Below are positions 1-24,232 of a DNA stretch of 64,000 nt, in pieces. The DNA is from Escherichia coli (lineage in GTDB: Bacteria > Pseudomonadota > Gammaproteobacteria > Enterobacterales > Enterobacteriaceae). How positions within the stretch are numbered: the first letter of the stretch is position 1; the number at the start of each line of letters is the position of its first letter. Below the pieces are notes generated by a model. It was not told the origin of the DNA. It saw only the letters and a program-made list of their open reading frames with translations, and made no database searches. Both the position numbers and the translations under genes were made by a program. Location: the NCBI RefSeq assembly GCF_003790525.1, contig NZ_CP033635.1; one strand, given 5' to 3'.

Positions 1-1
1 A

Positions 2-373
2 GATGCGAATGGCGGCAAGTACGAAGGCTACCGTACCCATTACAAATGGGACAACGGACTTGCTCTGCGTGACTGGCGTTATGTTGTTCGCATTGCAAAC
101 ATCGATGTCAGCAATCTTTCAGAACCTTCCTCTGCCGCAAATATTGCGAAGTTGATGGTTAAAGCACTGCATCGCATTCCAAATCGTGGCATGGGTCGCC
201 CGGTGTTCTACATGAACCGCACTGTAGGCCAGGCTCTTGATCTGCAATCTCTGGAGAAAACATCTCTGGCGATCAGCGTAAAAGAGACAGAAGGCGAGTG
301 GTGGACTTCATTCCGTGGTGTACCAATCCGTGAAACTGATGCGCTTCTGGAAACAGAAGCCCGCGTGGTGTAA
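2..373 (+). CDS. Phage head protein, C-terminal part (probably major capsid protein); 5' end is upstream of the window
   Basis: Open frame runs from window position 2 with no stop until TAA at 371-373; position directly upstream of the tail tubular genes; identity as capsid is inference from gene order. Confidence 0.45.
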   Translation, partial: DANGGKYEGYRTHYKWDNGLALRDWRYVVRIANIDVSNLSEPSSAANIAKLMVKALHRIPNRGMGRPVFYMNRTVGQALDLQSLEKTSLAISVKETEGEWWTSFRGVPIRETDALLETEARVV

Positions 374-389
374 CGCCTGTTATTAACCT

Positions 390-409
390 GTGGGTCGTAA
401 CAGACCCAC
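390..409 (+). promoter_or_regulatory. Intercistronic stem-loop GTGGGTC-N6-GACCCAC after the head gene, no U-tract
   Basis: Perfect 7-bp inverted repeat read directly; lies between stop at 373 and the RBS (GGAG 414-417) of the next gene; possible RNA processing or stability element. Confidence 0.4.
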
Positions 410-424
410 TAATGGAGAAAGAAG

Positions 425-862
425 ATGATCACCGACAAACTGTTGATGTTCTCCGAAGCTCAGGCGGTTACGAATACCGCGGCTTCTACTGACGTAATCG
501 ATCTCGGTCCAATTGACGGAAAACGTCGTGATATCGGCGTGGGTTACCCGCTTGAGTTTTGGGCGCTGGTTAACACAGCCGCCGCGGCAAGCGGTGATGC
601 AACTGTAAACATCCAGTTGCAGACGAGTGAGAATAACAGCTCATGGACCACTATTTATGATAGTGGCGCACTGGCAAAGACCGCCCTGACAGCAGGTAAA
701 CGAGTTGTTTCTGCAAAGGTGCCTGCCGGTGTTCAGCGATATCTGCGTGTTAACTACTCCGTCGCAACTGGCCCACTAACGGCTGGCGAATTCACTGCTG
801 GTATCAGTCTTGATGTTGATGCCAATACGCCGTATCCGATCCGCTCAAAAGTAACTGGTTAA
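425..862 (+). CDS. Hypothetical phage virion protein (145 aa)
   Basis: ORF with ATG preceded by GGAG 8 nt upstream; sits in the structural operon. Confidence 0.6.
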   Translation: MITDKLLMFSEAQAVTNTAASTDVIDLGPIDGKRRDIGVGYPLEFWALVNTAAAASGDATVNIQLQTSENNSSWTTIYDSGALAKTALTAGKRVVSAKVPAGVQRYLRVNYSVATGPLTAGEFTAGISLDVDANTPYPIRSKVTG

Positions 863-872
863 GGTGATATCG

Positions 873-1208
873 ATGTCAGGTGAGAAACCAAGATACCGCG
901 TTCTGCGCCTCTCTCATATCCATAACACTCTGTGGCCGGAGGGGGCAGAAATCGAATACGAAGGTGAGCCCGGTAGCGCACTGGAACCTGTTAACGATGC
1001 AGCCAGACAGGCAAAAGCAAAAATTGCAGGAAAGGTGTCAATGGCAGCAACCAGCACCAAAATCATCAACGATGTGTCAGATGATGGTGAACTGGATAAG
1101 CTCCGTGAAGAGTACGAATTGCTCTTTAACGAGAAGCCACACCATAACGCCAAAGCCGAAACGCTCCGCGAGAAGATCGCAGATAAGCGTAAAGAACTGG
1201 GCGTGTAA
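873..1208 (+). CDS. Hypothetical phage protein (111 aa from ATG 873; ORF track begins at GTG 864)
   Basis: AAGGTGA RBS at 861-867 placed 5 nt before ATG 873. Confidence 0.55.
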   Translation: MSGEKPRYRVLRLSHIHNTLWPEGAEIEYEGEPGSALEPVNDAARQAKAKIAGKVSMAATSTKIINDVSDDGELDKLREEYELLFNEKPHHNAKAETLREKIADKRKELGV

Positions 1209-1226
1209 GCCTCGCGGATCAGACAA

Positions 1227-1246
1227 GGGGCTTCGGCCCCTTTATT
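1227..1246 (+). terminator. Intrinsic terminator inside the structural operon (GGGGC-UUCG-GCCCC followed by TTTATT)
   Basis: GC stem with UUCG tetraloop and T-rich tail read directly; placed after the head-proximal genes, analogous in position to the T7 T-phi terminator (established knowledge). Confidence 0.55.
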
Positions 1247-1258
1247 GCAGGAGTGTAT

Positions 1259-1582
1259 ATGGAACTCGTAAACCTCAAAACCGGCACTGACAGCTACCAG
1301 GATGAGAGCGGAGAAACCAGAACTCGCGATGAATACCCGTGGGGGCTGTGCATCACTCTTAATAACGACACATTGAATAAGCTGAAGGCGCAACCTCAGG
1401 GCGTCGGAACAGAAGTGATGATAACTGCAAAGGCTGTTATTCGAGGCCTGTCTGCCAGAGAAACTGACGATGGTGTTAATCGCAGCGCCGATCTGCAGAT
1501 CACTGATATGGCGATCGCTCCTGTTTCCGGGGATGTAGAAAAATCAGCGGCTGAAACCCTGTACGGCAATGGGGGTGAGTAA
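1259..1582 (+). CDS. Hypothetical phage virion protein (107 aa)
   Basis: GCAGGAG RBS 5 nt before ATG 1259; stop overlaps the next start (TAATG). Confidence 0.55.
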   Translation: MELVNLKTGTDSYQDESGETRTRDEYPWGLCITLNNDTLNKLKAQPQGVGTEVMITAKAVIRGLSARETDDGVNRSADLQITDMAIAPVSGDVEKSAAETLYGNGGE

Positions 1583-2187
1583 TGGCCTCTGTAGTAGAGA
1601 TCTGCAATCGTGCGCTGTCCAATATTGGCAATAGCCGCAGCATTAACAGCCTGACGGAAGCCAGCAAGGAAGCGGGGGAATGTTCGCTGCACTTTGAGGC
1701 CTGCCGTGATGCTGTGCTTTCTGATTTTGACTGGAACTTTGCTACCAAACGCGTGGCGCTTGCAGATACGAGCAATCCACCGCCTGACTGGGAATATGCG
1801 TACCAGTACCCGTCAGATTGTCTGCGCATTACTGAAATTATGCTTCCTGGTGTACGCAATCCAACAGCAGCAATGCGCGTTCAGTACGAAGTTGGTGCAG
1901 ACACCAACGGAACAGGAAAGTTGATCTACACAGACCAGCCTCAGGCATGGCTCAAGTATGTCTCTCTCGTTACAGATGTGAACATGTTTGATGCCATTTT
2001 TATGGAGGCGTTGGCCTGGCGTCTTGCGGCAGCTATTAACATGGCGCTGACTGGGAATGCAGACCTCGGTACGTTTGCCCTCAATATGTACAATCGCGTG
2101 ATTCTTAGTGCTGGCTCGCATAGCCAGAATGAATCACAGGAACCACAGCCACCGGTTGATGAGTTTACCATTGCGAGGTTGTCCTGA
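1582..2187 (+). CDS. Tail tubular protein A-like (T7 gp11-like)
   Basis: 201 aa; size, position and N-terminal sequence pattern resemble T7 gp11 from memory; stop/start overlap with neighbours. Confidence 0.6.
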   Translation: MASVVEICNRALSNIGNSRSINSLTEASKEAGECSLHFEACRDAVLSDFDWNFATKRVALADTSNPPPDWEYAYQYPSDCLRITEIMLPGVRNPTAAMRVQYEVGADTNGTGKLIYTDQPQAWLKYVSLVTDVNMFDAIFMEALAWRLAAAINMALTGNADLGTFALNMYNRVILSAGSHSQNESQEPQPPVDEFTIARLS

Positions 2188-4658
2188 TGGCTATCAGTTG
2201 GATCCAGCCCAGCTTTGCCGGTGGTGAGATTGGACCGTCGTTGTACGGGCGTATTGACATGGCGAAGTACCAGGTAGCATTGCGCAAGTGCGATAACTTT
2301 ATCGTGCGGCAGTATGGCGGCGTTGAGAATCGACCTGGTACGCGTTTTGTCGGTGCCGCCAAATACCCAAATCGGAAATGCCGCCTGATCCCGTTCCAAT
2401 TCTCGACGGTTCAGACTTATGCTCTGGAGTTCGGACACCAGTACATGCGCGTTATCAAAGATGGTGCGTTGGTGCTGAACAGCAGCAATGTTATTTATGA
2501 AATTGCCACGCCATATACTGAAGCCGATCTGTTCCGAATTAAATTCACGCAAAGCGCCGACGTGCTTACGCTGGTTCACCCGGCATACCCGCCGAAAGAG
2601 CTGCGCCGCTATGCGCATGACAACTGGCAACTGGTTGATGTGGTAACGAAGAACGGGCCATTTGAAGATATCAATATTGATGAGTCAGTGACGGTTTATG
2701 CCAGCGCCAGCACCGGGACAATTACGTTAACGGCAAGCGCCTCTATTTTTGGCGCGGAGCAGGTAGGCAAATTGTTCTATCTGGAACAGCCTGCAGTGGA
2801 TTCTGTGCCGGTATGGGAAACCAGTAAGAGTACGTCGATTGGCGATATTCGCCGTGCAGACAGTAACTACTATCGCGCCGTTACAGCAGGCAAAACAGGC
2901 ACTTTGCGCCCTTCGCATACAGAAGGCACATCATGGGATGGCTGGGGCGGATCCGGTGATGATGATACTGGCATTGAGTGGGAGTATCTGCACAGTGGTT
3001 TTGGCATTGCCCGTATAACTGCTGTAAATGGCACTACTGCAACTGCTGAGGTGATTTCCTATATCCCTTCGCAGGTCGTTGGCGAGGATAATGCCAGCTA
3101 TAAATGGGCTAAATATGCCTGGAACAGTGTTAATGGTTATCCTGGCACTGTTGTTTATTATCAACAACGTCTTTACTTCGCCGCATCGACTGCGTTCCCT
3201 CAGACCATCTGGGCCAGCCGTACCGGGGATTATAAGGATTTTGGCAAAAGCAATCCTACGCAGGATGACGACAGAATTATCTACACCTATGCCGGGCGTC
3301 AGGTTAATGAGATCCGTCACCTGATTGATGTTGGTTCTCTGGTGGCGCTGACTTCCGGAGGTGAGTACGTCATCACCGGCGACCAGAACAAAGTGTTAAC
3401 CCCATCATCATTTGCATTCAGCTCTCAGGGATCAAATGGCTCGAGTAATGTCCCACCAATTGCCGTAGCGAATATTGCTCTGTTCGTCCAGGAGAAAGGC
3501 AGTGTTGTCCGTGATCTGGCCTACTCATTCGATGTTGACGGCTATCAGGGGAACGACCTGACCATCCTTGCCAATCATCTTTTTCAGAAGCACAGCATTG
3601 TTGACTGGTGCTTCTCGATTGTCCCTTACTCCAGCGCCTTCTGCATCCGTGATGACGGTAAATTACTGGTGATGACCTATTTGCGTGATCAACAGGTTTT
3701 TGCATGGGCACCACAGTCCAGTACCGGAAAATATGAAAGCACATGCAGTATCAGCGAAGGCAATGAAGATGCGGTGTATTTCGTCGTTAACCGAACCGTT
3801 AACGGGCAAACAGTGAGATACATCGAGAGACTGTCCAGCCGTTTATTTACCAGCGATGAAGATGCTTTCTTTGTTGATTCTGGCCTTAGCTATGATGGAA
3901 GAAATACGTCTGACAGAACGATGACCATCACTGGTGGTTCTGGTGAATGGGATTACCGCGCGGAATATACAATCAGTGTTTCTGGTGGTGCGTACTTCAC
4001 CAGTAGTGATGTCGGTGCGCAACTACAGTTCCCTTATACCGGAACTGATCCTGATACTGGCGATGAAGTGTCAAAAGAATTACGTTGCGACATTATTTCT
4101 GTAACCAGCAATACCGCTGTAGTGGTTCGTGCTAACAGGAACGTCCCGCCATCCCTCAGGAATGTGGCCACCACGAACTGGCAGATGGCGCGCCGGACAT
4201 TTGGAGGCCTGTCTCATCTTGAAGGCCAGACCGTAAACATTCTTTCTGATGCGAATGTTGAGCCACAGAAAGTTGTTTCCGGAGGTGCCGTCACACTGGA
4301 ATCACCGGGGGCTGTAGTGCACATCGGCCTGCCAATAACTGCTGAATTCGAAACACTGGATATCAACATTAACGGACAGGAAACGCTGCTGGACAAAAAA
4401 CAGGTGATCCCCTCCGTTACTCTGGTTGTGAATGCCAGCCGCGGCATCTGGGCGACTACGCCTGGCGGTAAATGGTACGAACATCCACAGCGTGAATTCG
4501 AGTTCTACGATGATCCTGTTGATGATGCTACCGGAAAAGTAGAAGTGAAACTGGACAGTAACTGGGGCAAAAACGGACGTGTAAAAATCCGTCAGCTTGA
4601 CCCGTTGCCGCTGTCTGTTCTTGCCGTTATTCCTCGCCTTACTGTTGGGGGATTCTGA
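2187..4658 (+). CDS. Tail tubular protein B-like (T7 gp12-like, nozzle)
   Basis: 823 aa directly after the gp11-like gene; N-terminal GG...RPG pattern like gp12; TGATG overlap at both ends. Confidence 0.6.
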   Translation: MAISWIQPSFAGGEIGPSLYGRIDMAKYQVALRKCDNFIVRQYGGVENRPGTRFVGAAKYPNRKCRLIPFQFSTVQTYALEFGHQYMRVIKDGALVLNSSNVIYEIATPYTEADLFRIKFTQSADVLTLVHPAYPPKELRRYAHDNWQLVDVVTKNGPFEDINIDESVTVYASASTGTITLTASASIFGAEQVGKLFYLEQPAVDSVPVWETSKSTSIGDIRRADSNYYRAVTAGKTGTLRPSHTEGTSWDGWGGSGDDDTGIEWEYLHSGFGIARITAVNGTTATAEVISYIPSQVVGEDNASYKWAKYAWNSVNGYPGTVVYYQQRLYFAASTAFPQTIWASRTGDYKDFGKSNPTQDDDRIIYTYAGRQVNEIRHLIDVGSLVALTSGGEYVITGDQNKVLTPSSFAFSSQGSNGSSNVPPIAVANIALFVQEKGSVVRDLAYSFDVDGYQGNDLTILANHLFQKHSIVDWCFSIVPYSSAFCIRDDGKLLVMTYLRDQQVFAWAPQSSTGKYESTCSISEGNEDAVYFVVNRTVNGQTVRYIERLSSRLFTSDEDAFFVDSGLSYDGRNTSDRTMTITGGSGEWDYRAEYTISVSGGAYFTSSDVGAQLQFPYTGTDPDTGDEVSKELRCDIISVTSNTAVVVRANRNVPPSLRNVATTNWQMARRTFGGLSHLEGQTVNILSDANVEPQKVVSGGAVTLESPGAVVHIGLPITAEFETLDININGQETLLDKKQVIPSVTLVVNASRGIWATTPGGKWYEHPQREFEFYDDPVDDATGKVEVKLDSNWGKNGRVKIRQLDPLPLSVLAVIPRLTVGGF

Positions 4659-5667: not shown

Positions 5668-8180
5668 TGCCAGTCGTACCAACAGTATCCGGACGTCAGG
5701 TTGAGAGCCGTGGAGTTCAGTCAGCAGGCTTGCAGACGTTTTCTCAGCCAGGTATTGGTGATGCTTTTGTTCTGGCAGGGGAAGAGGCAATTGATGTTTT
5801 TGGGCAGGCAAAACAGCGTGCCAATATTGCCTTGGCTCAGGAGGCATCTCTTAACCTCAGTCAGATAAGCAGTGATTTGCTGAATAATCCTGAAACAGGA
5901 TTGCTTAACCTGAAAGGGAAAAATGCTATTGGAAAAGGCCATGAGTATACGCAGCAGTTTGATGCTCAGGTCGAACAATTGGCTATGTCGCTGCCGGATG
6001 AACAGGCTCGTAATGCTTTCATGCAGCAGGCGCAGCAGCAGCGCATTCAGTTCACTACGCAGGCCGGGCGGCACGAGATAGGGCAAATAAATGCCTACGA
6101 AGAAGGCCAGTTTCAGGCGACGCTGCTGAACAATGGTAAAAATGCCGCAGCATTGTATGGCGACAACGCCGCATACGTATTGGCTAATAAGCAAACTTTC
6201 CAGCAAATTGAGGATTACGGCATTGCGCATGGCTGGAGCGACGAGCAAATCCAGGCCAAGAAAATCGAGTTTAAAGAGAAGGTTGCTGATGCCGCATTGT
6301 CCCAGTGGTCGGCAAACAATGCGACCGCATTCATCCAAAGTAATGGCGAGTTAAGTGATACTGCTGCTGGAGCTCGCCGTGCTGTAGCAGATAGTGACTC
6401 TTCCGAGCGTGCCCGTGGCATACGCAACAATAACCCAGGAAATCTCGAATACAGCAAAACTAATCCGTGGGTAGGCCAGACCGGTGATGATGGTCGATTT
6501 GCTAAATTCGAAACACCTGAACACGGGATTCGTGCATTAGGGCGGAACCTGATGTCGTATCAGAGGCAGGGTATTGATACCGTCAGCGAGATAATTAATC
6601 GCTGGGCACCGCCTACTGATAAAAATGACACTATGTCGTATATCAAAGCAGTGTGCGAACAACTTGGCGTTTCTGCTGATGAGCCTCTCGATGCATCTAA
6701 TCCTGATACCCTGAAGGCGCTTTGTGCAGCCATTATCCATCATGAGAACGGTAGCCAGCCATACAGTGATCAGCAGTTAACTGCTGGTGTCAGTGCAGCA
6801 CTTGGTTTATCAACAATTCCAACCAACATCAAACGCTATACCGGTAATGCAGCATTCGATGCGGCATCTCCTGAGGCGCAGGCAAGTTTTATGCGACAGG
6901 CGGATCAACTGCGTCGGCAGCAGCAGGCTGAATATAAAACGATGATTGACAGCCAGGTTCGCGATGCGACAGCTGCGTATATGCGTGGCGTTGAATTTCC
7001 TAACCCACCTGGTGAGGCTGATTTTATTGCAGCTTATGGAGTCAGAGAAGGAAACCTGCGATATACCGAGTTCAGAAATGCGCAAATCGCCGGACAGTAT
7101 ATAGGCTCTTTCCGCAACATGCCGACAAGCAGCATTACATCATATGTTGAGCAATTACGCCCGGATACTGGTGAGACAGGGGAGGGTTATGCGGCACGAG
7201 CCGCTCTTTATGACAACGTTGTGTCGGCTGCAAGTCAGGTGATAAAGCAGCGACAGGCTGATCCTGTACAGTTCTCTCTTGCCGCCGGACAGGCAAAGCC
7301 TATCGACATGAGCAATAAGGATAACTTTGGACAGAGCGTTGCCTTGCGTGCCGCTCAGGTCAGTGACCTTGCTAAGTCATATGGCACTCCACTGACGTTC
7401 TTTTCCAAAGACGAGGCCAATCAGATCGGTGTTTTCTTTCGTGATGCGCCCGTTTCCCAACAGGCAGCATATCTCGATACCATCAGGCAGAGCACTGGTG
7501 GTGGGCAGGTGTATATGTCAGCACTACAGCAGATCAGTGCCAACGCTCCATCTGCTGCCGTTGCCGGGATACTGATGGATAAGCCAGGTGGTATTTTGGC
7601 AGAAAAAAACTGGTTTAATCCGGATGTTTCCGTGTCTCCTGAAACCGCTGCGCAGACAATTCTTGCTGGCGCGGCGGCTCGTAAAGGTACTGATGACGCG
7701 AAAGGTATTCCGATGCCTAAAGATGCTGATCTTCGCCTTGAGTTTTCTGACATGGTGAAGGATGCATTTGCTGGTGATGCTCAGGGGGCATCAATGGCAT
7801 ACGAGATCGCAAAGGACTATTACGCTGGTGTGATGGCGAAAAAAGGCGTGGTATCAGGCGAAATTGACAATGATATCTGGAAACAGGCTGTTAACGTAGC
7901 TACAGGTGGCGTGCATGACTATAACGGAATGGGGAATGTTCTTTTGCCGTGGGGAATGTCTGCAGAGCAATTCGATAAGCAGGTTAATCAGGCTTGGAAT
8001 GAACAAGTTGTTGGCACAGGGATAAAAACACCGCCTGGTCAGTATGGTTTGCAAAGTTACGGCGATAGTCAGTACCTGGTGAAACTTGGTACTGGTTATC
8101 TGCTAAAAGATGATGGTTCTCCCGTTGTTCTTGATCTGACACAGAAGCGTCAGAGATTCTCCGGAGATATTCCGAAATGA
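5667..8180 (+). CDS. Internal virion / ejection protein (gp15-like position), 837 aa
   Basis: Start moved from ORF-track 5592 to ATG 5667, which overlaps the upstream stop (TAATG) and has GGAGG 7 nt upstream; contains a conserved-looking NNPGNL...W...RWAP motif block. Confidence 0.55.
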   Translation: MPVVPTVSGRQVESRGVQSAGLQTFSQPGIGDAFVLAGEEAIDVFGQAKQRANIALAQEASLNLSQISSDLLNNPETGLLNLKGKNAIGKGHEYTQQFDAQVEQLAMSLPDEQARNAFMQQAQQQRIQFTTQAGRHEIGQINAYEEGQFQATLLNNGKNAAALYGDNAAYVLANKQTFQQIEDYGIAHGWSDEQIQAKKIEFKEKVADAALSQWSANNATAFIQSNGELSDTAAGARRAVADSDSSERARGIRNNNPGNLEYSKTNPWVGQTGDDGRFAKFETPEHGIRALGRNLMSYQRQGIDTVSEIINRWAPPTDKNDTMSYIKAVCEQLGVSADEPLDASNPDTLKALCAAIIHHENGSQPYSDQQLTAGVSAALGLSTIPTNIKRYTGNAAFDAASPEAQASFMRQADQLRRQQQAEYKTMIDSQVRDATAAYMRGVEFPNPPGEADFIAAYGVREGNLRYTEFRNAQIAGQYIGSFRNMPTSSITSYVEQLRPDTGETGEGYAARAALYDNVVSAASQVIKQRQADPVQFSLAAGQAKPIDMSNKDNFGQSVALRAAQVSDLAKSYGTPLTFFSKDEANQIGVFFRDAPVSQQAAYLDTIRQSTGGGQVYMSALQQISANAPSAAVAGILMDKPGGILAEKNWFNPDVSVSPETAAQTILAGAAARKGTDDAKGIPMPKDADLRLEFSDMVKDAFAGDAQGASMAYEIAKDYYAGVMAKKGVVSGEIDNDIWKQAVNVATGGVHDYNGMGNVLLPWGMSAEQFDKQVNQAWNEQVVGTGIKTPPGQYGLQSYGDSQYLVKLGTGYLLKDDGSPVVLDLTQKRQRFSGDIPK

Positions 8181-12468: not shown

Positions 12469-12882
12469 ATGAAGGAATTATTGCTGTTATCGGTATTTTT
12501 GATATCCGCTTGCTCGACATCCTATGATGTTTATGACGGTGTTGATAAGGCATATTGCGACAAAGTTAAAATGGATTTTTCTCTTGCCAAGACGGCGAAG
12601 GATAGTTGTATTGATCACTACGTCAAGACTTATACCAAGCCAGCCTCATCGGCATCTGATATTGCTGAAGGTGCTGTGTTTGAGTGTAACAAGGTGATAT
12701 CCATCGCAGCGAGTTCTTCATACGATGCTGCTGTATGTGCAATGGCTGAAAGAAACGGCATGTCAGTGCAAAAAATTAATAGCATGATAAGCAGTAATGA
12801 CGAAGCCAAAATAAGAACTGATATCAGCTCGGTGAAAAAAGATGCCATGAACAGAGTTGTAAAATATCAGTCATCTTTATAA
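12469..12882 (+). CDS. Prophage lipoprotein (signal peptide with lipobox L-I-S-A-C), 137 aa, AT-rich gene
   Basis: N-terminus MKELLLLSVFLISAC read directly; AAGGA RBS; sits at the start of the accessory island. Confidence 0.65.
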   Translation: MKELLLLSVFLISACSTSYDVYDGVDKAYCDKVKMDFSLAKTAKDSCIDHYVKTYTKPASSASDIAEGAVFECNKVISIAASSSYDAAVCAMAERNGMSVQKINSMISSNDEAKIRTDISSVKKDAMNRVVKYQSSL

Positions 12883-12897
12883 GTCGTGACATGTCAC

Positions 12898-12922
12898 AGG
12901 CCGCTTTCGCGGCCTTGTTTTT
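12898..12922 (+). terminator. Intrinsic terminator of the structural operon / lipoprotein gene
   Basis: AGGCCGC-TTTC-GCGGCCT hairpin followed by TGTTTTT. Confidence 0.6.
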
Positions 12923-13154: not shown

Positions 13155-13176
13155 AAAAAAGCCCGCAGCGCGGGCT
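13155..13176 (-). terminator. Intrinsic terminator of the cargo operon
   Basis: AGCCCGC-GCU-GCGGGCU hairpin followed by six U on the - strand; overlaps the stop codon at 13175. Confidence 0.6.
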
Positions 13177-13902: not shown

Positions 13903-14589
13903 TCAGAAGAACCCAGCCTTGTCGTTGATGTACTCCGCGTGGGTCTGGATATCACGCAGGCATTTGCTCACACCAACAATGTAGCAGAACATGGTGGTCA
14001 GCTCCGCCGCCGCGCCCGATACGTCGTGCCCGTCTTCCTGTAACTGGTTCAGCAGATTCATCAGCAGTGAGTTCTCCGTCAGGCCGAGAACACCAGACGG
14101 AGAATGAATCAGGCTGCGGTAGCCGGGCTTCAGTGGGGCACTGTAGGTTTTGTTCTCTATCTTCATTGCCTGCATCACTGCTGATGCTGTGGCGTTGGCT
14201 ACCTGGTCGGCAACTATCTTTATGCGTTCTTCCTGCGGGAGCGAGTTTTTAATGTAACTTCCGGTGCGGCGGATCTGAGGAAGAACCTCACCTGTAACCC
14301 ATTTACGAAAGCGGTAGGGGATAGTGCCTGGTGTCACTGCGTCGCGGCAGCGGAGGATCAGTGTGTAGAGGCCTGACTCGTTGATAATATTGGTTTCACC
14401 TTGACGGCCTAAGTTAAATTTAGCCCTTTCATCATCATCAAGAGATTTTATTGACATAGTGGGGTTTGTCAGTTGAAGAGCTTTAATAACGTCTTTGGCA
14501 ACAAACCAAGGATTTCCATCAATAACAATGGCTCGAATGGTGGCTTCTGATTCAAAATGAAAAACAGATGGGGTTACGTTAGCAGTCAT
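13903..14589 (-). CDS. Antirepressor-like protein with N-terminal BRO-N / AntA-type domain, 228 aa
   Basis: Motifs FHFE...IR..IDG.PWFVAKDV and ESGLY.LI read in the translation (BRO-N family, from memory); start set at ATG 14589 with AAGGTGA RBS rather than ORF-track 14742, which has no RBS and a Gly/Cys-rich non-protein-like extension. Confidence 0.8.
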   Translation of the reverse strand: MTANVTPSVFHFESEATIRAIVIDGNPWFVAKDVIKALQLTNPTMSIKSLDDDERAKFNLGRQGETNIINESGLYTLILRCRDAVTPGTIPYRFRKWVTGEVLPQIRRTGSYIKNSLPQEERIKIVADQVANATASAVMQAMKIENKTYSAPLKPGYRSLIHSPSGVLGLTENSLLMNLLNQLQEDGHDVSGAAAELTTMFCYIVGVSKCLRDIQTHAEYINDKAGFF

Positions 14590-14742
14590 AGTGATCACCT
14601 TTGTAGTTAGGTTAATCACCACTACCGACGCCAATCGGTTGGTGGTGAACTGTGCAGGGTTGGCGTAACCGGCTACAAAGGACCCGGCGCACCTTTCGGT
14701 GCCCCCACACAGCCCACCATAGAATAGGTGCGCTTTACACAT

Positions 14743-14761
14743 AAAAAAACCGCTTATGCGG
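14743..14761 (-). terminator. Short intrinsic terminator or attenuator in the leader of the antirepressor-like gene (CCGC-AUAA-GCGG followed by seven U)
   Basis: Read on the - strand; stem is only 4-5 bp, so call is tentative. Confidence 0.4.
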
Positions 14762-14855
14762 CATATGTGCCTCTGTAGTAACCCGGGACGCCAATCCCGG
14801 CACTGGATTTTGCCAGTGCCCGATTACTATGGCACAAGAGGAGTGCGATGTAAAT

Positions 14856-19358: not shown

Positions 19359-19837
19359 TCTGGGCATTCGTAAAAGCATACTGGAAACAGTTGGTTATCA
19401 TGGCGATGCTTGCTGTTCTGGTCATATCAGGAGTTGTAGCCTGGAATGCACACGGTAGTCGTCAGTACGACGCCGGGTATGCGCAGGCGGAAGAAGACCG
19501 CAAAGACGAAGAAGACAAAGTTCGTCAGTACTACGAACAGGAGAAAGTGACCAATGAACGTGAAGCGCAGCAAAGAATCGACCAGGCGCGCAATGATGCT
19601 CTTGATGCTGCCGCTCGCGCTGGCAGGTTGCAGCAACAACTCTTTGCCATCCGTGAGCAGCTCAGGCAGTATAACGCCATTGTCGGCGCTGGGACGTCAG
19701 CCGCAGACACCGGAGTTTTGCTTGCCGACGTGCTCAGCAAATCTCTCGAGAGAAACAGACAACTGGCAGAGTATGCTGACCGGGCAGCCGAAGCCGGAAG
19801 AGTCTGCGAAAAACAGTACGACACCCTGACCAGATAG
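19355..19837 (+). CDS. Rz-like i-spanin (N-terminal transmembrane helix, coiled-coil periplasmic domain)
   Basis: ATGA overlap with endolysin stop; typical Rz architecture. Confidence 0.7.
19554..19829 (+). CDS. Rz1-like o-spanin lipoprotein, fully embedded in the Rz gene in the +1 frame
   Basis: Signal peptide ending in lipobox LAGC, Pro-rich mature part, embedded arrangement as in lambda Rz/Rz1 (established knowledge). Confidence 0.65.
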   Translation: MNVKRSKESTRRAMMLLMLPLALAGCSNNSLPSVSSSGSITPLSALGRQPQTPEFCLPTCSANLSRETDNWQSMLTGQPKPEESAKNSTTP

Positions 19838-19992
19838 CATGGTATTTTTCATGGCACTGATTTCCGGTGACGGTATATAAAACGGTACGGGAAAAGTTGA
19901 GCTTTGGAAAAATGTTATCACTCAATTGGTTATGGTGTCCGTGAATAATTGAGTGGGAATGATTTTGATCCCTGCACTATGAATGAACAAAA

Positions 19993-20018
19993 CCCTCTGT
20001 TACTACAGAGGGTTTTTT
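19993..20018. terminator. Bidirectional intrinsic terminator (CCCTCTGT-TACT-ACAGAGGG flanked by A-run and T-run) at the prophage / yfgI junction
   Basis: Perfect 8-bp stem with six T after it on + and four on -. Confidence 0.6.
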
Positions 20019-20056
20019 ATACTCACGAATCATAGGCTTGAAGTTACTGACATCGC

Positions 20057-20596
20057 TTAGTTAAACCAGCTGTCCGATTTGTTCTCTTCTGCTTTGCCCA
20101 CGCTTTTCATCAGATCGCGACCGCCTTCAGTCATATTTCTGTTTGCGTCAGCTTCAGATTGCACCACATCGGTTTGCGCAGCTTTGTGCTTCAGTTCCTG
20201 ATCGATAAATTCGTTTTCTCGCTTAACGCGGGCTTCTTCTTTCGCCAGCGCCAGTTTTTGTTTCTGAATCTCTAAGCTGCGTAGCTCATCTTCATAACTT
20301 TGATCGCGTTTTTTGTCCGCAGTGGCTTCGGCGTCCAGTTTATCCTGACGAGCTTTCTTATTCGCTGCTGCCGTTGCCGCTCTTTTATTAGCCGCGGCCT
20401 GGGCGTTTGCGCGACGTTGCTTCTCTTGCTGGATTTCCCTGTTGCGCTCCGCGACCCATTCGTCATGCTGCCTTTGCTCTTCATTTTTACCTTGCTGTTC
20501 CGCTTCTGCGACAGCAGAGAGTTGATCCTGCAATGATGAGGCGATAGCCGGATAGCTTAAGGAGGCTAAGATGGCGCAAAGAAAAACTTTCTTCAT
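20057..20596 (-). CDS. yfgI: YfgI, periplasmic protein (179 aa)
   Basis: Signal peptide plus Lys/Glu/Ala-rich repeats; matches recalled K-12 protein and gene order. Confidence 0.85.
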   Translation of the reverse strand: MKKVFLCAILASLSYPAIASSLQDQLSAVAEAEQQGKNEEQRQHDEWVAERNREIQQEKQRRANAQAAANKRAATAAANKKARQDKLDAEATADKKRDQSYEDELRSLEIQKQKLALAKEEARVKRENEFIDQELKHKAAQTDVVQSEADANRNMTEGGRDLMKSVGKAEENKSDSWFN

Positions 20597-20611
20597 GACT
20601 CCTCCTGATTA

Positions 20612-21130
20612 TTAGCTCTTTTCAGGACATTTGGTATTTGGCTGAATACGCGTTTCGTTATACGTCGTGGTAATAACAACGGCTAAACCTGTCGTAAACT
20701 GGCACTCTTTACCCACCTGGGTGGAGGTATACACTTTGGTGCCTTCCTTATACGTTAGAGAAACACCTTCCACTAAGGTTTTATCATTCACCATAGAACC
20801 CGCTGCCGCGCCAACAGCTCCGCCGCCAACTGCACCTGCCGTCGTTCCGGAATTGCTGCCAGACCCCACGTTGTGGCCGATTACACCGCCAGCGACTGCA
20901 CCAATAAGTGCGCCGAAGGCTTGTGCGTTTCGTTTATTTTGGGAGTTGTCTACGGCAACTTTTGCGGGAAGAATGGAAATAATATTAACGGTTTTAGTTT
21001 CTTGTTTGGTATTCAGTTGATCGGTTTGATAAACATCGGCGGCATGATCATCAGCATTTGACTGGCATCCTGCCAGAGTGAATGACGCTAACATTGCCAC
21101 AGGCAGAAGACATTTTTTAAATTTCATCAC
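20612..21130 (-). CDS. yfgH: YfgH, glycine-zipper outer-membrane lipoprotein (172 aa)
   Basis: Lipobox LAGC and Gly-rich zipper in translation; K-12 gene order. Confidence 0.85.
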   Translation of the reverse strand: MMKFKKCLLPVAMLASFTLAGCQSNADDHAADVYQTDQLNTKQETKTVNIISILPAKVAVDNSQNKRNAQAFGALIGAVAGGVIGHNVGSGSNSGTTAGAVGGGAVGAAAGSMVNDKTLVEGVSLTYKEGTKVYTSTQVGKECQFTTGLAVVITTTYNETRIQPNTKCPEKS

Positions 21131-21440
21131 TATTCCTTGTTATACACATTACGAAAAATAAGACATTTAAGATCATCAAAAGAGGAAAGTAAATGTATTG
21201 CGTATAAAGGAATAGATTAAATTTATTAAAATTCATGTGGGAAATAATTTATAAAAATACATCATTAAAATATATGTATTAATTTTATATTTATTTCGCA
21301 GCCAAACAGGATAAACATCAGTCAGGACAAAGACGTAAAATTTAAGATGAAAGAATATCTGCCGCTTTGATAATCCCAAAGAGCAAAAGCATCCGACAGC
21401 GAGGTGCCGTTATGTTCTGTGAAAGTGGAGAAGGTAACCG

Positions 21441-21632
21441 CTAACGTTGTACCGGTGATTCGACGGAGAGTGTGGATTGCTGAGCTTCTTTTTTGCTCTG
21501 ATGGTGCTGCCATGCACCGACGGACGAGTAGATAAAACGGCCAAAGAAGAAGATAAAGCTGATGAGCAGTACGATACGGGTCATGCGACTGTTAAATCGG
21601 TGTCGTTTTCGCATACTGGTTGCCTGACTCAC
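21441..21632 (-). CDS. yfgG: YfgG, small membrane protein (63 aa)
   Basis: Size and position between yfgH and pdeF as in K-12. Confidence 0.7.
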   Translation of the reverse strand: MSQATSMRKRHRFNSRMTRIVLLISFIFFFGRFIYSSVGAWQHHQSKKEAQQSTLSVESPVQR

Positions 21633-21983
21633 AAAAGGTTCCTTGAAGTATGTCCCACGCTGTGGACAGTACTTACATTAAGGCACAACAGGACAAAATG
21701 GTCAATTCTTCGTTATGTAAAAAAGCGTCAGTGGATACATATTTTAATGTTATGGAAGTTAATTTAATTATTTACAATGATGATGTAATAATGATGAATT
21801 AACATGATAAACGTAATAATTCATTAATCAGGGTTATTTTGTTTGATATATATCAATTGGAACTTTCATATGACACTTAGAATCAATGCTCTCTATAGTG
21901 ATGAATAATCATCATTCGAAGTCAGGTGGGATGCCTGTCTGAATACACCTCCTTCAGGATGTGGGGGATTCTGCTGAGCATCT

Positions 21984-24227
21984 ATGAAACTGAATGCAAC
22001 TTATATAAAAATACGTGATAAATGGTGGGGGCTTCCGCTGTTCCTGCCTTCTTTAATCTTGCCCATTTTCGCCCACATTAATACTTTCGCGCATATTTCT
22101 TCCGGTGAGGTTTTTCTCTTTTATCTGCCTCTGGCTCTGATGATCAGCATGATGATGTTTTTCAGCTGGGCGGCATTGCCAGGGATCGCCTTAGGGATTT
22201 TTGTCCGCAAATATGCAGAGCTGGGTTTTTACGAAACGCTCTCATTAACGGCTAATTTTATTATCATTATCATTCTCTGTTGGGGCGGTTACAGGGTCTT
22301 TACTCCCCGGCGTAACAACGTTTCACATGGTGATACCCGTTTAATTTCCCAGCGTATATTCTGGCAGATTGTGTTTCCTGCAACGCTGTTTCTGATACTT
22401 TTCCAGTTTGCTGCGTTTGTAGGATTACTGGCGAGCAGAGAAAATCTGGTCGGCGTCATGCCTTTTAACCTCGGGACCTTAATCAATTATCAGGCCTTAC
22501 TGGTGGGCAATCTGATTGGTGTCCCGCTGTGCTACTTCATCATTCGTGTAGTGCGAAATCCGTTTTATTTACGCAGTTATTATTCGCAATTAAAACAGCA
22601 GGTTGATGTCAAAGTCACCAAAAAAGAGTTCGCACTCTGGCTACTGGCATTAGGTGCTTTACTGCTGCTGTTATGCATGCCGTTAAATGAAAAAAGCACA
22701 ATTTTTAGCACCAACTATACCTTGTCATTATTGCTGCCCCTGATGATGTGGGGAGCGATGCGCTATGGTTATAAGCTGATTTCGCTGCTCTGGGCGGTCG
22801 TGTTGATGATCAGCATCCACAGCTATCAAAATTACATTCCCATTTATCCTGGCTATACCACGCAACTGACCATAACCTCCTCCAGTTATCTGGTATTCTC
22901 TTTTATTGTCAATTATATGGCTGTACTGGCAACCCGTCAGCGAGCGGTAGTCAGACGCATTCAGCGGCTTGCGTATGTGGACCCGGTGGTTCATCTGCCA
23001 AATGTTCGCGCCCTGAATCGCGCGTTGCGTGATGCCCCCTGGTCTGCGCTTTGTTATTTACGCATCCCTGGCATGGAAATGCTGGTTAAGAACTATGGCA
23101 TCATGCTACGGATTCAATACAAGCAAAAACTTTCTCACTGGCTGTCACCCTTGCTGGAACCGGGTGAAGATGTTTATCAGCTTTCGGGTAACGATCTCGC
23201 GCTGCGACTGAATACAGAATCGCACCAGGAGCGCATTACCGAACTGGATAGCCATCTCAAGCAATTTCGTTTCTTTTGGGATGGAATGCCGATGCAACCG
23301 CAGATTGGCGTCAGTTACTGCTATGTGCGCTCGCCAGTGAATCATATCTACCTGCTGCTGGGAGAGCTAAATACGGTCGCCGAGCTTTCCATCGTGACCA
23401 ACGCCCCGGAAAATATGCAGCGTCGCGGGGCAATGTATTTGCAACGCGAATTGAAAGATAAAGTCGCGATGATGAATCGGCTACAGCAGGCGCTGGAACA
23501 CAACCATTTTTTCCTGATGGCCCAGCCGATTACCGGTATGCGTGGTGATGTCTACCATGAAATTCTTCTGCGCATGAAAGGTGAGAATGATGAACTGATC
23601 AGCCCCGACAGCTTCTTGCCGGTCGCGCACGAATTTGGTTTATCGTCGAGTATCGACATGTGGGTCATTGAGCATACGCTGCAATTTATGGCTGAAAACA
23701 GAGCGAAGATGCCCGCTCACCGTTTTGCGATTAATCTGTCGCCAACCTCGGTATGTCAGGCGCGTTTTCCCGTTGAAGTCAGTCAGCTGCTGGCTAAATA
23801 TCAAATTGAAGCGTGGCAACTTATTTTTGAAGTCACCGAAAGTAATGCTCTGACCAATGTTAAGCAGGCGCAAATCACCTTGCAGCATCTTCAGGAATTA
23901 GGCTGCCAGATTGCGATTGATGATTTCGGCACCGGCTATGCCAGCTATGCGCGGCTTAAAAATGTGAATGCCGATTTGCTTAAAATTGACGGCAGTTTTA
24001 TCCGCAATATTGTGTCAAATAGTCTGGATTATCAGATAGTGGCGTCGATTTGCCACCTGGCGCGAATGAAGAAAATGCGGGTAGTGGCAGAGTACGTTGA
24101 AAACGAAGAGATCCGCGAGGCGGTGTTCTCTTTGGGGATCGATTATATGCAGGGTTATCTTATTGGTAAGCCGCAACCGTTAATTGATACGCTGAATGAA
24201 ATCGAACCCATTCGCGAAAGTGCCTGA
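21984..24227 (+). CDS. pdeF: Cyclic-di-GMP phosphodiesterase PdeF (YfgF), membrane MASE1 domain plus GGDEF-like and EAL domains
   Basis: 747 aa with N-terminal multi-helix membrane region and C-terminal EAL-type motifs; K-12 order after ppx. Confidence 0.9.
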   Translation: MKLNATYIKIRDKWWGLPLFLPSLILPIFAHINTFAHISSGEVFLFYLPLALMISMMMFFSWAALPGIALGIFVRKYAELGFYETLSLTANFIIIIILCWGGYRVFTPRRNNVSHGDTRLISQRIFWQIVFPATLFLILFQFAAFVGLLASRENLVGVMPFNLGTLINYQALLVGNLIGVPLCYFIIRVVRNPFYLRSYYSQLKQQVDVKVTKKEFALWLLALGALLLLLCMPLNEKSTIFSTNYTLSLLLPLMMWGAMRYGYKLISLLWAVVLMISIHSYQNYIPIYPGYTTQLTITSSSYLVFSFIVNYMAVLATRQRAVVRRIQRLAYVDPVVHLPNVRALNRALRDAPWSALCYLRIPGMEMLVKNYGIMLRIQYKQKLSHWLSPLLEPGEDVYQLSGNDLALRLNTESHQERITELDSHLKQFRFFWDGMPMQPQIGVSYCYVRSPVNHIYLLLGELNTVAELSIVTNAPENMQRRGAMYLQRELKDKVAMMNRLQQALEHNHFFLMAQPITGMRGDVYHEILLRMKGENDELISPDSFLPVAHEFGLSSSIDMWVIEHTLQFMAENRAKMPAHRFAINLSPTSVCQARFPVEVSQLLAKYQIEAWQLIFEVTESNALTNVKQAQITLQHLQELGCQIAIDDFGTGYASYARLKNVNADLLKIDGSFIRNIVSNSLDYQIVASICHLARMKKMRVVAEYVENEEIREAVFSLGIDYMQGYLIGKPQPLIDTLNEIEPIRESA

Positions 24228-24232
24228 ATAAT

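What the first reader, a model, noticed from the sequence alone, without database searches (positions are those of the whole stretch)
1227..1246. Internal intrinsic terminator with UUCG tetraloop inside the structural operon
Seen: GGGGC-UUCG-GCCCC followed by UUUAUU, after the first three head-proximal genes and before the tail tubular genes. Inference: partial termination setting head versus tail protein stoichiometry.
Basis: partly seen in the sequence, partly recalled or inferred. Interest (0 to 1): 0.35.

Follow-up and report, generated by a model that had tools for sequence, protein, structure and literature searches.

The report
Leaky terminator after prophage capsid genes
This is a real, strongly conserved RNA hairpin that looks like a weak transcription terminator sitting right after the capsid-shell genes of a phiV10/epsilon15-type prophage; the same element is already annotated as a terminator in phage epsilon15, so it is an ordinary, known kind of feature.

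Summary
It lies on the coding strand in a 50-nt gap of the late operon of a phiV10-like (Uetakevirus) prophage. The 20-nt element is 18-20/20 identical in most enterobacterial relatives whose flanking genes are only 58-83% identical. More distant relatives keep a hairpin plus T-rich tail with changed sequence: an A-U to G-C swap, a GAAA loop, a 6-bp stem in epsilon15, and a similar hairpin in BPP-1. The epsilon15 GenBank record already annotates the orthologous hairpin as a rho-independent terminator.

Across 79 species-level relatives, 70 carry a terminator-like hairpin just after the capsid and cement genes. The best reading is a weak, leaky intrinsic terminator that favours capsid-shell mRNA over downstream genes, like T7 T-phi.

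The next gene is the capsid staple protein gp10, not a tail tubular gene, which complicates a simple head-versus-tail stoichiometry story. Termination itself is untested. Known kind, low interest.

The parts
1..373 (+). 3' end of the major capsid protein gene (epsilon15 gp7 / phiV10 p10 homologue)
   Evidence: 98% DNA identity to phiV10. Annotated as major head protein or major capsid protein in phiV10 and in E. coli genomes.
390..409 (+). First intercistronic hairpin, GTGGGTC-GTAACA-GACCCAC, with no U-tract. Probably an mRNA-stability or processing hairpin after the capsid gene.
   Evidence: -13.6 kcal/mol, z = -3.36. Compensatory changes in relatives, and different GC-rich hairpins at the same place in BPP-1 and BcepC6B. 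Absent in the epsilon15 clade.
425..862 (+). Bbp16-family capsid cement protein gene
   Evidence: Pfam PF21190, E 4.7e-47. PGAP name 'Bbp16 family capsid cement protein'.
873..1208 (+). Small gene of unknown function (epsilon15 gp9 / phiV10 p12 homologue). Last gene before the hairpin.
   Evidence: phrog_590, unknown function. Annotation.
1225..1242 (+). Terminator hairpin. Core is GGGGC(1227-1231)-UUCG-GCCCC(1236-1240), extendable by two A-U pairs.
   Evidence: Stem invariant in 80 close relatives, with changes confined to the loop and the 5' spacer. Structure kept with changed sequence in distant relatives.
1241..1246 (+). Interrupted U-tract, UUUAUU. Its first two U can pair with the A residues 5' of the stem.
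   Evidence: A T-rich tail is kept after the hairpin in all clades (TTTCTT, GCTTTTCT, TTTACTCT, CTTTTTCTT).
1249..1253 (+). Shine-Dalgarno AGGAG of the gp10-like gene, 5 nt before its ATG at 1259
   Evidence: GCAGGAG is conserved in the phiV10-like relatives; the epsilon15 clade and Rahnella keep only GGAG.
1259..1582 (+). gp10-like capsid staple (decoration) protein gene. First gene downstream of the hairpin.
   Evidence: Pfam PF21628 Gp10-like, E 1.1e-51. 43% identical to epsilon15 gp10. PGAP name 'capsid staple protein'.
1582..2187 (+). gp11-like tail protein (the epsilon15 record notes an HHpred match to T7 tail tubular protein A). Its start overlaps the gp10 stop (TAATG).
   Evidence: phrog_394 tail protein, E 3.9e-86. 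epsilon15 record note 'HHpred 3j4b_A Tail tubular protein A'.
2187..4658 (+). gp12-like large tail protein gene. Must be transcribed through the hairpin.
   Evidence: phrog_376 tail protein. No promoter-like site between 661 and 5094 on the + strand.
12898..12915 (+). Stronger terminator at the end of the structural operon (AGGCCGC-TTTC-GCGGCCT then TGTTTTT), for comparison
   Evidence: -14.3 kcal/mol, z = -4.2. phiV10 annotates a terminator at the corresponding place.

Best explanation
The element is a conserved, weak intrinsic (Rho-independent) terminator inside the late operon of a phiV10/epsilon15-type prophage. It sits directly after the capsid-shell gene block: major capsid protein, Bbp16-type cement protein and a small gp9-like protein.

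Proposed mechanism. When host RNA polymerase transcribes 1227-1246, the nascent RNA folds into a C(UUCG)G-capped GC hairpin followed by UUUAUU. A fraction of polymerases release the transcript around 1246-1249. The remaining polymerases read through into the gp10 staple gene, the gp11/gp12 tail genes and the other structural genes up to about 12.9 kb. The terminated transcripts end in a stable hairpin, which should also protect capsid-shell mRNA from 3' exonucleases. The net effect would be more shell mRNA than downstream mRNA.

Shown here: the hairpin, its position, its conservation, and the recurrence of such a hairpin at this place in distant relatives.

Inferred: that termination occurs, that it is partial, and that it tunes expression.
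For: - Exact hairpin plus T-rich tail on the coding strand, in a 50-nt intergenic gap.
- Local fold of -12.7 kcal/mol, z = -2.97.
- The orthologous hairpin between genes 9 and 10 of epsilon15 is annotated 'rho-independent terminator' in AY150271.2 and NC_004775.2.
- The 20-nt element is 18-20/20 identical in eight enterobacterial relatives whose flanking genes are 58-83% identical in DNA. Rahnella scores 15/20 and epsilon15 14/20.
- In 80 close relatives the stem never varies, while the 5' spacer and the loop do.
- Structure is kept with sequence change. Superficieibacter has an A-U to G-C swap. Rahnella has a GAAA loop. epsilon15 has GGGGCC-AUUC-GGCCCC followed by GCUUUU.
- BPP-1 has CGGGGGC-UUCGU-GCCCCCG followed by CUUUUUCUU, directly before its gp11-like tail gene bbp14.
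- Of 79 species-level loci, 34 have a terminator-like hairpin within 160 nt upstream of the gp11-like gene, against 2.4% of control windows. Another 36 have one 221-654 nt upstream, in the checked cases with one small gene between.
- In all four distant loci checked (L103, L104, L110, L148), the genes before the hairpin are a GP7-type capsid gene and a Bbp16-type cement gene, in L103 followed by a further 76-aa ORF.
- The T-rich tail is kept at this hairpin but is absent from the other conserved hairpin at 390-409.
- Downstream genes are essential and have no promoter-like site of their own.
- Leaky internal terminators that balance expression have been measured in other phages and are attributed to T7 (PMC9163698).
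Against: - No transcript data of any kind were available.
- The signal is weak by standard criteria. The stem is only 5 GC pairs (7 with A-U). The U-tract is interrupted. The recalled d'Aubenton-Carafa-type score is +7.4 with the 5-bp stem but -18.5 if the two A-U pairs are counted into the stem.
- The generic scan did not call it.
- Hairpins of this type are not rare by chance in 64 kb.
- The gene right after it encodes the capsid staple protein, which binds as dimers at the capsid two-fold positions. From memory it is present in numbers similar to the major capsid protein. An efficient terminator here would starve the capsid of it.
- In phiV10-like phages the late region starts with a promoter-like site followed about 25 nt later by a good terminator. 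This hints that late transcription might be antiterminated and would ignore this hairpin.
Confidence: 0.6

Rival explanations
1. It is mainly an mRNA-stability or processing hairpin. It would block 3'-to-5' exonucleases after endonucleolytic cleavage, or shield the 5' end of the downstream message, and so set segmental mRNA half-lives with little or no real termination.
For: - Very stable C(UUCG)G tetraloop hairpin.
- The same operon has a second conserved, covarying hairpin after the capsid gene (390-409) that has no U-tract and can hardly be a terminator. This shows that stability-type hairpins are used here.
- The U-tract is weak and interrupted.
Against: - A T-rich tail directly after the stem is retained in every clade even where the stem sequence is different. 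A pure exonuclease barrier does not need this, and the 390-409 hairpin lacks it.
- The epsilon15, BPP-1 and Melainabacteria versions look like canonical strong terminators.
Confidence: 0.2
2. It is a true terminator only for unmodified polymerase. During lytic growth the late transcription complex would be antiterminated and read through. The hairpin would then mainly insulate downstream genes from stray transcription in the lysogen.
For: - In phiV10 and TL-2011b the late region begins with a promoter-like site (GTGACA-N18-CATGAT) followed about 25 nt later by the terminator GCCGCC-AACTAT-GGCGGC-TTTATTTTG, just before the small terminase gene. This layout resembles lambda PR'-tR'.
- The gene just upstream encodes a small Cys-rich 'transcriptional regulator' (phrog_536).
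Against: - No Q-, N- or other antiterminator family was detected in the phiV10 early-right genes.
- In phage ZF40 a homologue of the small regulator coexists with a separate Q-like protein, so it is not obviously the antiterminator.
- The structure model of the regulator was too poor to use (pLDDT 63).
- The promoter-like match is at chance level.
- All of this lies outside the window.
Confidence: 0.12
3. The hairpin is part of a larger fold that sequesters the Shine-Dalgarno sequence of gp10 (GCCUC at 1209-1213 pairing with GGAG at 1250-1253). It would control gp10 translation rather than transcription.
For: The minimum-energy fold of 1205-1262 pairs CUC/C with GGAG around the hairpin. GCCTC after the stop codon is conserved in the phiV10-like clade.
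Against: - Only 3-4 pairs are involved.
- The 58-nt fold is no more stable than shuffles (z = -0.37).
- The outer pairing is not kept in epsilon15, Rahnella, BPP-1 or the distant relatives.
- There is no covariation.
Confidence: 0.04
4. It is a chance GC-rich inverted repeat, or a DNA-level recombination scar from the relocation of gp10, with no function.
For: - Such hairpins occur by chance at about 0.6 per 64 kb.
- The gp10-like gene sits elsewhere (after the portal gene) in BPP-1, BcepC6B and others, so a rearrangement did happen next to the hairpin.
Against: - The element is far better conserved than the flanking coding DNA.
- There are compensatory changes, and loop-only changes.
- The same kind of hairpin is present at the same place in relatives that have no gp10 gene there.
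Confidence: 0.03

Closest known systems
The annotated rho-independent terminator between genes 9 and 10 of Salmonella phage epsilon15 (AY150271.2 / NC_004775.2, stem_loop 7664..7686 on +, 7647..7681 on -)
   Same: Same genus (Uetakevirus). Same position between the gp9-like and gp10 genes. Related core: GGGGCC-AUUC-GGCCCC versus GGGGC-UUCG-GCCCC. T-rich tail, followed by the gp10 ribosome-binding site.
   Different: - The epsilon15 version has a 6-bp GC stem extended by AAAAGC/GCUUUU (-18.8 versus about -12 kcal/mol).
- It has an uninterrupted U4 run and is annotated as bidirectional.
- The version in this window is shorter and weaker, and is not annotated in any of the phiV10-type phage or E. 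coli records inspected.
T7 T-phi, the leaky late terminator after capsid gene 10 and before tail tubular genes 11 and 12 (own knowledge; T7's use of inefficient terminators is cited in PMC9163698)
   Same: An internal terminator placed after the capsid gene, upstream of a gene whose epsilon15 homologue is noted as an HHpred match to T7 tail tubular protein A. Read-through is needed for tail genes. The presumed effect is an excess of capsid mRNA.
   Different: - T-phi acts on T7 RNA polymerase; here the host polymerase must be the target.
- There is no sequence relationship.
- A capsid staple gene lies between this terminator and the tubular gene.
- Termination is measured for T7 and not for this element.
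Canonical E. coli intrinsic terminators (GC-rich hairpin plus U-tract)
   Same: GC stem, stable tetraloop (UUCG here, GAAA in the Rahnella relative), T-rich tail, location after a stop codon on the coding strand.
   Different: The stem is at the short end of the range and the U-tract is interrupted by A after three U. The score is borderline and the generic scan misses it.
Intercistronic mRNA-stabilising hairpins in polycistronic operons, for example REP hairpins in malE-malF and the puf operon hairpins (own knowledge)
   Same: A stable hairpin between cistrons that can make the upstream segment more abundant than the downstream one.
   Different: Those elements lack a U-tract and do not terminate. 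This one keeps a T-rich tail across clades. The neighbouring hairpin at 390-409 fits this class better.

Membership tests
Intrinsic (Rho-independent) terminator | GC-rich stem-loop (about 5-14 bp stem, 3-8 nt loop) in the nascent RNA | tested here: met
   Five G-C pairs plus two A-U pairs and a UUCG loop. -9.6 to -12.7 kcal/mol, z = -2.97.
Intrinsic (Rho-independent) terminator | U-rich tract of about 7-9 nt immediately 3' of the stem | tested here: inconclusive
   UUUAUUGC has 5 U in 8 and the run is interrupted after three. If the A-U pairs form, only UAUUGC remains. The score is +7.4 or -18.5 depending on where the stem is taken to end. Not listed by the generic scan but listed by my own scans.
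Intrinsic (Rho-independent) terminator | Lies on the transcribed strand, downstream of a stop codon, outside coding sequence | tested here: met
   It lies 19 nt after the gp9-like stop (1208) and 13 nt before the gp10 ATG (1259), on the strand of all late genes.
Intrinsic (Rho-independent) terminator | Hairpin plus U-tail maintained by selection in orthologous positions | tested here: met
   18-20/20 identity against 58-83% in the flanking genes in eight relatives. Compensatory and loop-only changes. Different hairpins with T tails at the same place in BPP-1 and in 70 of 79 distant loci.
Intrinsic (Rho-independent) terminator | Factor-independent release of RNA with 3' ends in the U-tract | not testable with these tools
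   No transcript or in vitro data were found (literature searches found none for this phage group).
Orthologue of the epsilon15 gene 9/10 terminator | Same flanking genes (gp9-like upstream, gp10 staple gene downstream) and an alignable hairpin core | tested here: met
   Gene order and homology. Intergenic alignment with 14/20 core matches and a shared GGGGC...GCCCC.
T7 T-phi-type terminator (class I signal for phage RNA polymerase) | Recognised by a phage-encoded single-subunit RNA polymerase | tested here: not met
   No RNA polymerase gene is annotated in phiV10. The resemblance is in position and logic only, so this is 'works like', not membership.
Antitermination-controlled late operon (lambda Q type) | A recognisable Q-like antiterminator, plus a late promoter followed closely by a terminator | tested here: inconclusive
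   A promoter-like site plus terminator is present before the small terminase gene in relatives. No Q-family protein was detected, and the model of the candidate regulator is unusable.

The most novel reading that the evidence does not exclude
The hairpin may be the local copy of an ancient, conserved 'end of capsid-shell block' attenuator. It would be shared by the whole epsilon15/BPP-1 supergroup of short-tailed phages, from Enterobacteriaceae and Bordetella to Rhodospirillales, Bacillota and Melainabacteria prophages. Its position after the capsid and Bbp16-cement genes is fixed, while the gene that follows it varies: gp10 staple, an internal virion protein, or the gp11-like tail gene. In Uetakevirus the staple gene would have been captured downstream of the attenuator, so its dosage would have to be set at translation rather than transcription.
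Probability: 0.4. Interest if true: 0.4.

Novelty: new member of a known kind. Interest (0 to 1): 0.22.

Why it matters
On its own it matters little. It is one more leaky intrinsic terminator in a phage late operon, and its orthologue is already annotated in epsilon15.

It is useful in three practical ways:
- It corrects annotation. About 515 of 5,426 complete E. coli genomes carry this region, and none of the phiV10-type phage or E. coli records I inspected marks the feature.
- It gives engineers of phiV10 reporter phages a natural boundary between high- and lower-expression segments.
- Its near-universal presence after the capsid and cement genes in very distant relatives makes it a convenient natural series of terminators of graded strength, for testing how phages balance shell against other virion proteins.

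Tried and rejected
- **IMG/VR scan for relatives.** It returned only 99-100% identical loci. These were useful for within-clade variation but not for covariation, so the genome-contig scan was used instead.
- **Column-wise covariation counting.** It was not used because MAFFT puts the epsilon15 clade one column out of register. Each hairpin was folded on its own instead.
- **gp10 as a paralogue of the post-portal gene gp5.** Rejected: BLASTP E = 5.8.
- **Shine-Dalgarno sequestration by a larger fold.** Not supported: z = -0.37 and not conserved.
- **Rfam.** No family at the hairpin.
- **Is the small Cys-rich regulator p55 an antiterminator?** No Pfam hit and no solved relative. The AlphaFold model had pLDDT 63 and pTM 0.33, so no fold search was run. 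Homologue contexts were ambiguous.
- **Direct repeats GGTAMCTATTACCAC upstream of the small terminase gene as a recurring late-promoter motif.** No convincing further copy: one 2-mismatch match inside the phiV10 tailspike gene, the rest 3-mismatch matches at or near chance level.
- **The epsilon15 genome paper (Kropinski 2007, PMC2698709).** It could not be read, so the basis of its terminator annotation is known only from the GenBank feature.
- **Literature searches for transcript data on this phage group.** None found.
- **The d-score formula** was recalled from memory and applied with modern energy parameters. It is only a rough guide.

Full report
**What is there**

The loop is closed by a C-G pair, which makes it a classic C(UUCG)G tetraloop. 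Two A-T pairs outside the GC stem can lengthen it to 7 bp (1225-1242).

The 5-bp hairpin folds at -9.6 kcal/mol. In a 28-nt context the fold is -12.7 kcal/mol, with z = -2.97 and 2 of 200 shuffles as good. A wider 58-nt context is unremarkable, z = -0.37. The 14-mer is unique in the window.

Taken alone, the hairpin is not beyond chance. All-GC 5-bp hairpins followed by TTT occur twice in the window, against 0.64 +/- 0.82 in dinucleotide shuffles. The generic terminator scan did not list this one. The case for a real feature therefore rests on position and conservation.

**Where it is**

The left 20 kb of the window is a prophage 98% identical to Escherichia phage phiV10, genus Uetakevirus, whose type phage is Salmonella phage epsilon15. 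All late genes are on the + strand:
- The major capsid gene ends at 373.
- A Bbp16-family capsid cement gene is at 425-862 (Pfam PF21190, E 5e-47).
- A small unknown gene, gp9-like, is at 873-1208.
- The hairpin follows.
- An epsilon15 gp10-like gene is at 1259-1582 (Pfam PF21628, E 1e-51). PGAP names it 'capsid staple protein'.
- A gp11-like tail gene is at 1582-2187. The epsilon15 record notes an HHpred match of its gp11 to T7 tail tubular protein A.
- A gp12-like tail gene is at 2187-4658, and further virion genes run to about 12.9 kb.

Gene junctions in this operon overlap or are shorter than 11 nt, with two exceptions: 374-424 and 1209-1258. Both gaps hold a stable hairpin.

The next gene encodes a head protein.

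**Already annotated in the type phage**

The epsilon15 GenBank and RefSeq records carry stem_loop features labelled 'rho-independent terminator; transcriptional termination' between genes 9 and 10, on both strands. That sequence is AAAAGC-C-GGGGCC-AUUC-GGCCCC-GCUUUU. It is the positional orthologue of the hairpin in this window. None of the phiV10-type phage records or the E. coli chromosome record that I inspected marks it.

**Conservation**

In 80 near-identical IMG/VR relatives the stem never changes. The 5' spacer varies at several positions, and two loop variants occur: TTCA and TTAG.

In eight phage and prophage relatives from Enterobacter, Salmonella, Klebsiella, Erwinia, Pseudocitrobacter, Pseudescherichia and Superficieibacter, the flanking gp9 and gp10 genes are only 58-83% identical in DNA. 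The 20-nt element is nevertheless 18-20/20 identical.

Where it does change, the structure is kept:
- Superficieibacter converts the basal A-U pair to G-C.
- Erwinia adds a G-U pair.
- Rahnella replaces UUCG with GAAA, another stable tetraloop.
- The epsilon15 clade has a 6-bp stem.

A T-rich tail follows in every case.

**Deep conservation of the position**

Bordetella phage BPP-1 has CGGGGGC-UUCGU-GCCCCCG-CUUUUUCUU between bbp15 and bbp14, its gp11-like tail gene.

I scanned one genome per species with the gp11-like protein, which gave 79 usable loci.
- Thirty-four have a terminator-like hairpin within 160 nt upstream of the gp11-like gene, against 2.4% of control windows from the same loci.
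- Thirty-six more have one 221-654 nt upstream. In the Uetakevirus-like loci the gene in between is gp10-like. In the one Melainabacteria locus I checked (L148) it is an internal virion protein.

In all four distant loci checked (L103, L104, L110, L148), the genes before the hairpin are a GP7-type capsid gene and a Bbp16-type cement gene. L103 has a further 76-aa ORF after these.

The fixed point is therefore 'end of the capsid-shell block'. What follows varies.

The gp10-like gene itself sits after the portal gene in BPP-1, BcepC6B and several uncultured phages. It is not a paralogue of Uetakevirus gp5. It was evidently relocated in Uetakevirus to a spot downstream of a terminator that already existed.

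**How it most likely works**

The best-supported reading is a weak intrinsic terminator for host RNA polymerase. No promoter-like site lies between it and the essential tail genes, so termination must be incomplete. Terminated transcripts would end in a very stable hairpin, which should prolong the life of capsid and cement mRNA. The outcome would be more shell-protein mRNA than downstream mRNA.

This is the logic of T7 T-phi, which lies after capsid gene 10 and before tubular genes 11 and 12 (own knowledge). Leaky internal terminators that balance expression have been measured in other phages. In Pseudomonas phage LUZ7 more than 60% of termination sites had under 50% efficiency, and the same paper cites T7 for this strategy (PMC9163698).

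**Weaknesses of this reading**

- The stem is short and the U-tract interrupted. A recalled d'Aubenton-Carafa-type score is +7.4 or -18.5 depending on where the stem is taken to end.
- No transcript data exist for this phage group.
- The staple protein gp10 is encoded downstream of the hairpin. It binds as dimers at the capsid two-fold positions (PMC7602432; PMC12391199). From memory it is present in numbers close to those of the capsid protein. So this is not a clean head/tail divider, and gp10 dosage must rely on read-through plus its strong AGGAG ribosome-binding site (1249-1253).

**Rivals**

1. A pure mRNA-stability hairpin. In favour: the neighbouring hairpin at 390-409 covaries, has no U-tract and fits this class. 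Against: the T-rich tail is conserved at 1241-1246 and in all distant versions.
2. A terminator overridden by antitermination during lytic growth. In phiV10 and TL-2011b the late region opens with a promoter-like site followed about 25 nt later by a good terminator, just after a small Cys-rich regulator gene. However, no Q-like family was found, a homologue coexists with a separate Q-like protein in ZF40, and the structure model was unusable.
3. Sequestration of the gp10 ribosome-binding site. Not supported.
4. Chance, or a recombination scar. Contradicted by the conservation data.

**Verdict**

The stated gene context is wrong in one important respect, and the stoichiometry function is untested.

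The element is an unannotated orthologue of a terminator already annotated in epsilon15, and it belongs to a textbook class. The one mildly new point is how widely the 'terminator after capsid plus cement genes' layout is conserved across very distant hosts. Interest is low.

Noticed in passing
window 390-409 (+): A second conserved hairpin, GTGGGTC-GTAACA-GACCCAC, lies directly after the major capsid gene and has no U-tract. It shows compensatory changes in relatives (ATGGGCC...GGCCCAT; Klebsiella AGCGGCCCG...CGGGCTGCT). BPP-1 and BcepC6B have other GC-rich hairpins at the same place. The epsilon15 clade lacks it. It is probably an mRNA-stability or processing element.
   Followed up: partly
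window 14638-14832 (- strand): Rfam matches above gathering score to C4 antisense RNA (RF01695, 79.5 bits) and isrK (RF01394, 74.7 bits), plus the a1/b1 target motif. They lie next to a Bro-N antirepressor-type gene (13903-14742, - strand). This is a P1/P7-style antisense immunity module inside the prophage.
   Followed up: no
L178 601-716 (TL-2011b) and L001 1-111 (phiV10); outside the window: The late region of phiV10-like phages opens with a promoter-like site GTGACA-N18-CATGAT. About 25 nt later comes the terminator GCCGCC-AACTAT-GGCGGC-TTTATTTTG, then two direct repeats GGTA(C/A)CTATTACCAC just before the small terminase ATG. The phiV10 record starts the terminase CDS upstream of this terminator, which looks like a mis-called start. 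The layout resembles lambda PR'-tR'.
   Followed up: partly
window 1259-1582, compared with L007, L008 and L010-L012: The gp10-like staple gene lies after the portal gene in BPP-1 (bbp20), BcepC6B (gp06), Limnohabitans phage DC33 and two uncultured phages. In Uetakevirus it lies after the gp9-like gene and the terminator, so the gene has moved. This prophage also encodes both a Bbp16-type cement protein and a gp10-type staple protein. That raises the question of which of them decorates the capsid.
   Followed up: partly
L105-L172 (genome-contig loci): Dozens of Gastranaerophilales/Melainabacteria, Rhodospirillales and Bacillota genomes carry prophage-like loci with an epsilon15-type module: a GP7 capsid gene, a Bbp16 cement gene, a terminator, and a gp11-like tail gene. 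Their hairpins covary clearly, for example GATATCCGGC...GCCGGATATC versus CTGAAATCCGAG...CTCGGATTTCAG.
   Followed up: partly
window 12898-12915 (+) and 13160-13176 (both strands): A strong terminator closes the structural operon. About 250 nt further on there is a hairpin that is a good terminator on the - strand (score +24) and a poor one on the + strand. It closes the convergent antirepressor region.
   Followed up: no
window 12469-12882 (+): The last ORF of the structural operon is 137 aa here. phiV10 has a 46-aa membrane protein (p21) at the corresponding place. There is no Pfam hit, so this may be a variable cargo slot at the operon end.
   Followed up: no
window about 19840-24230: The last prophage gene (an Rz-like spanin, by correspondence with phiV10) ends near 19837. 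What follows looks like host DNA: DUF5384 and glycine-zipper lipoprotein-like genes on the - strand, then a MASE1-EAL protein (21984-24227). No tRNA gene is present in the window, so the attachment site is not a tRNA within this stretch.
   Followed up: no
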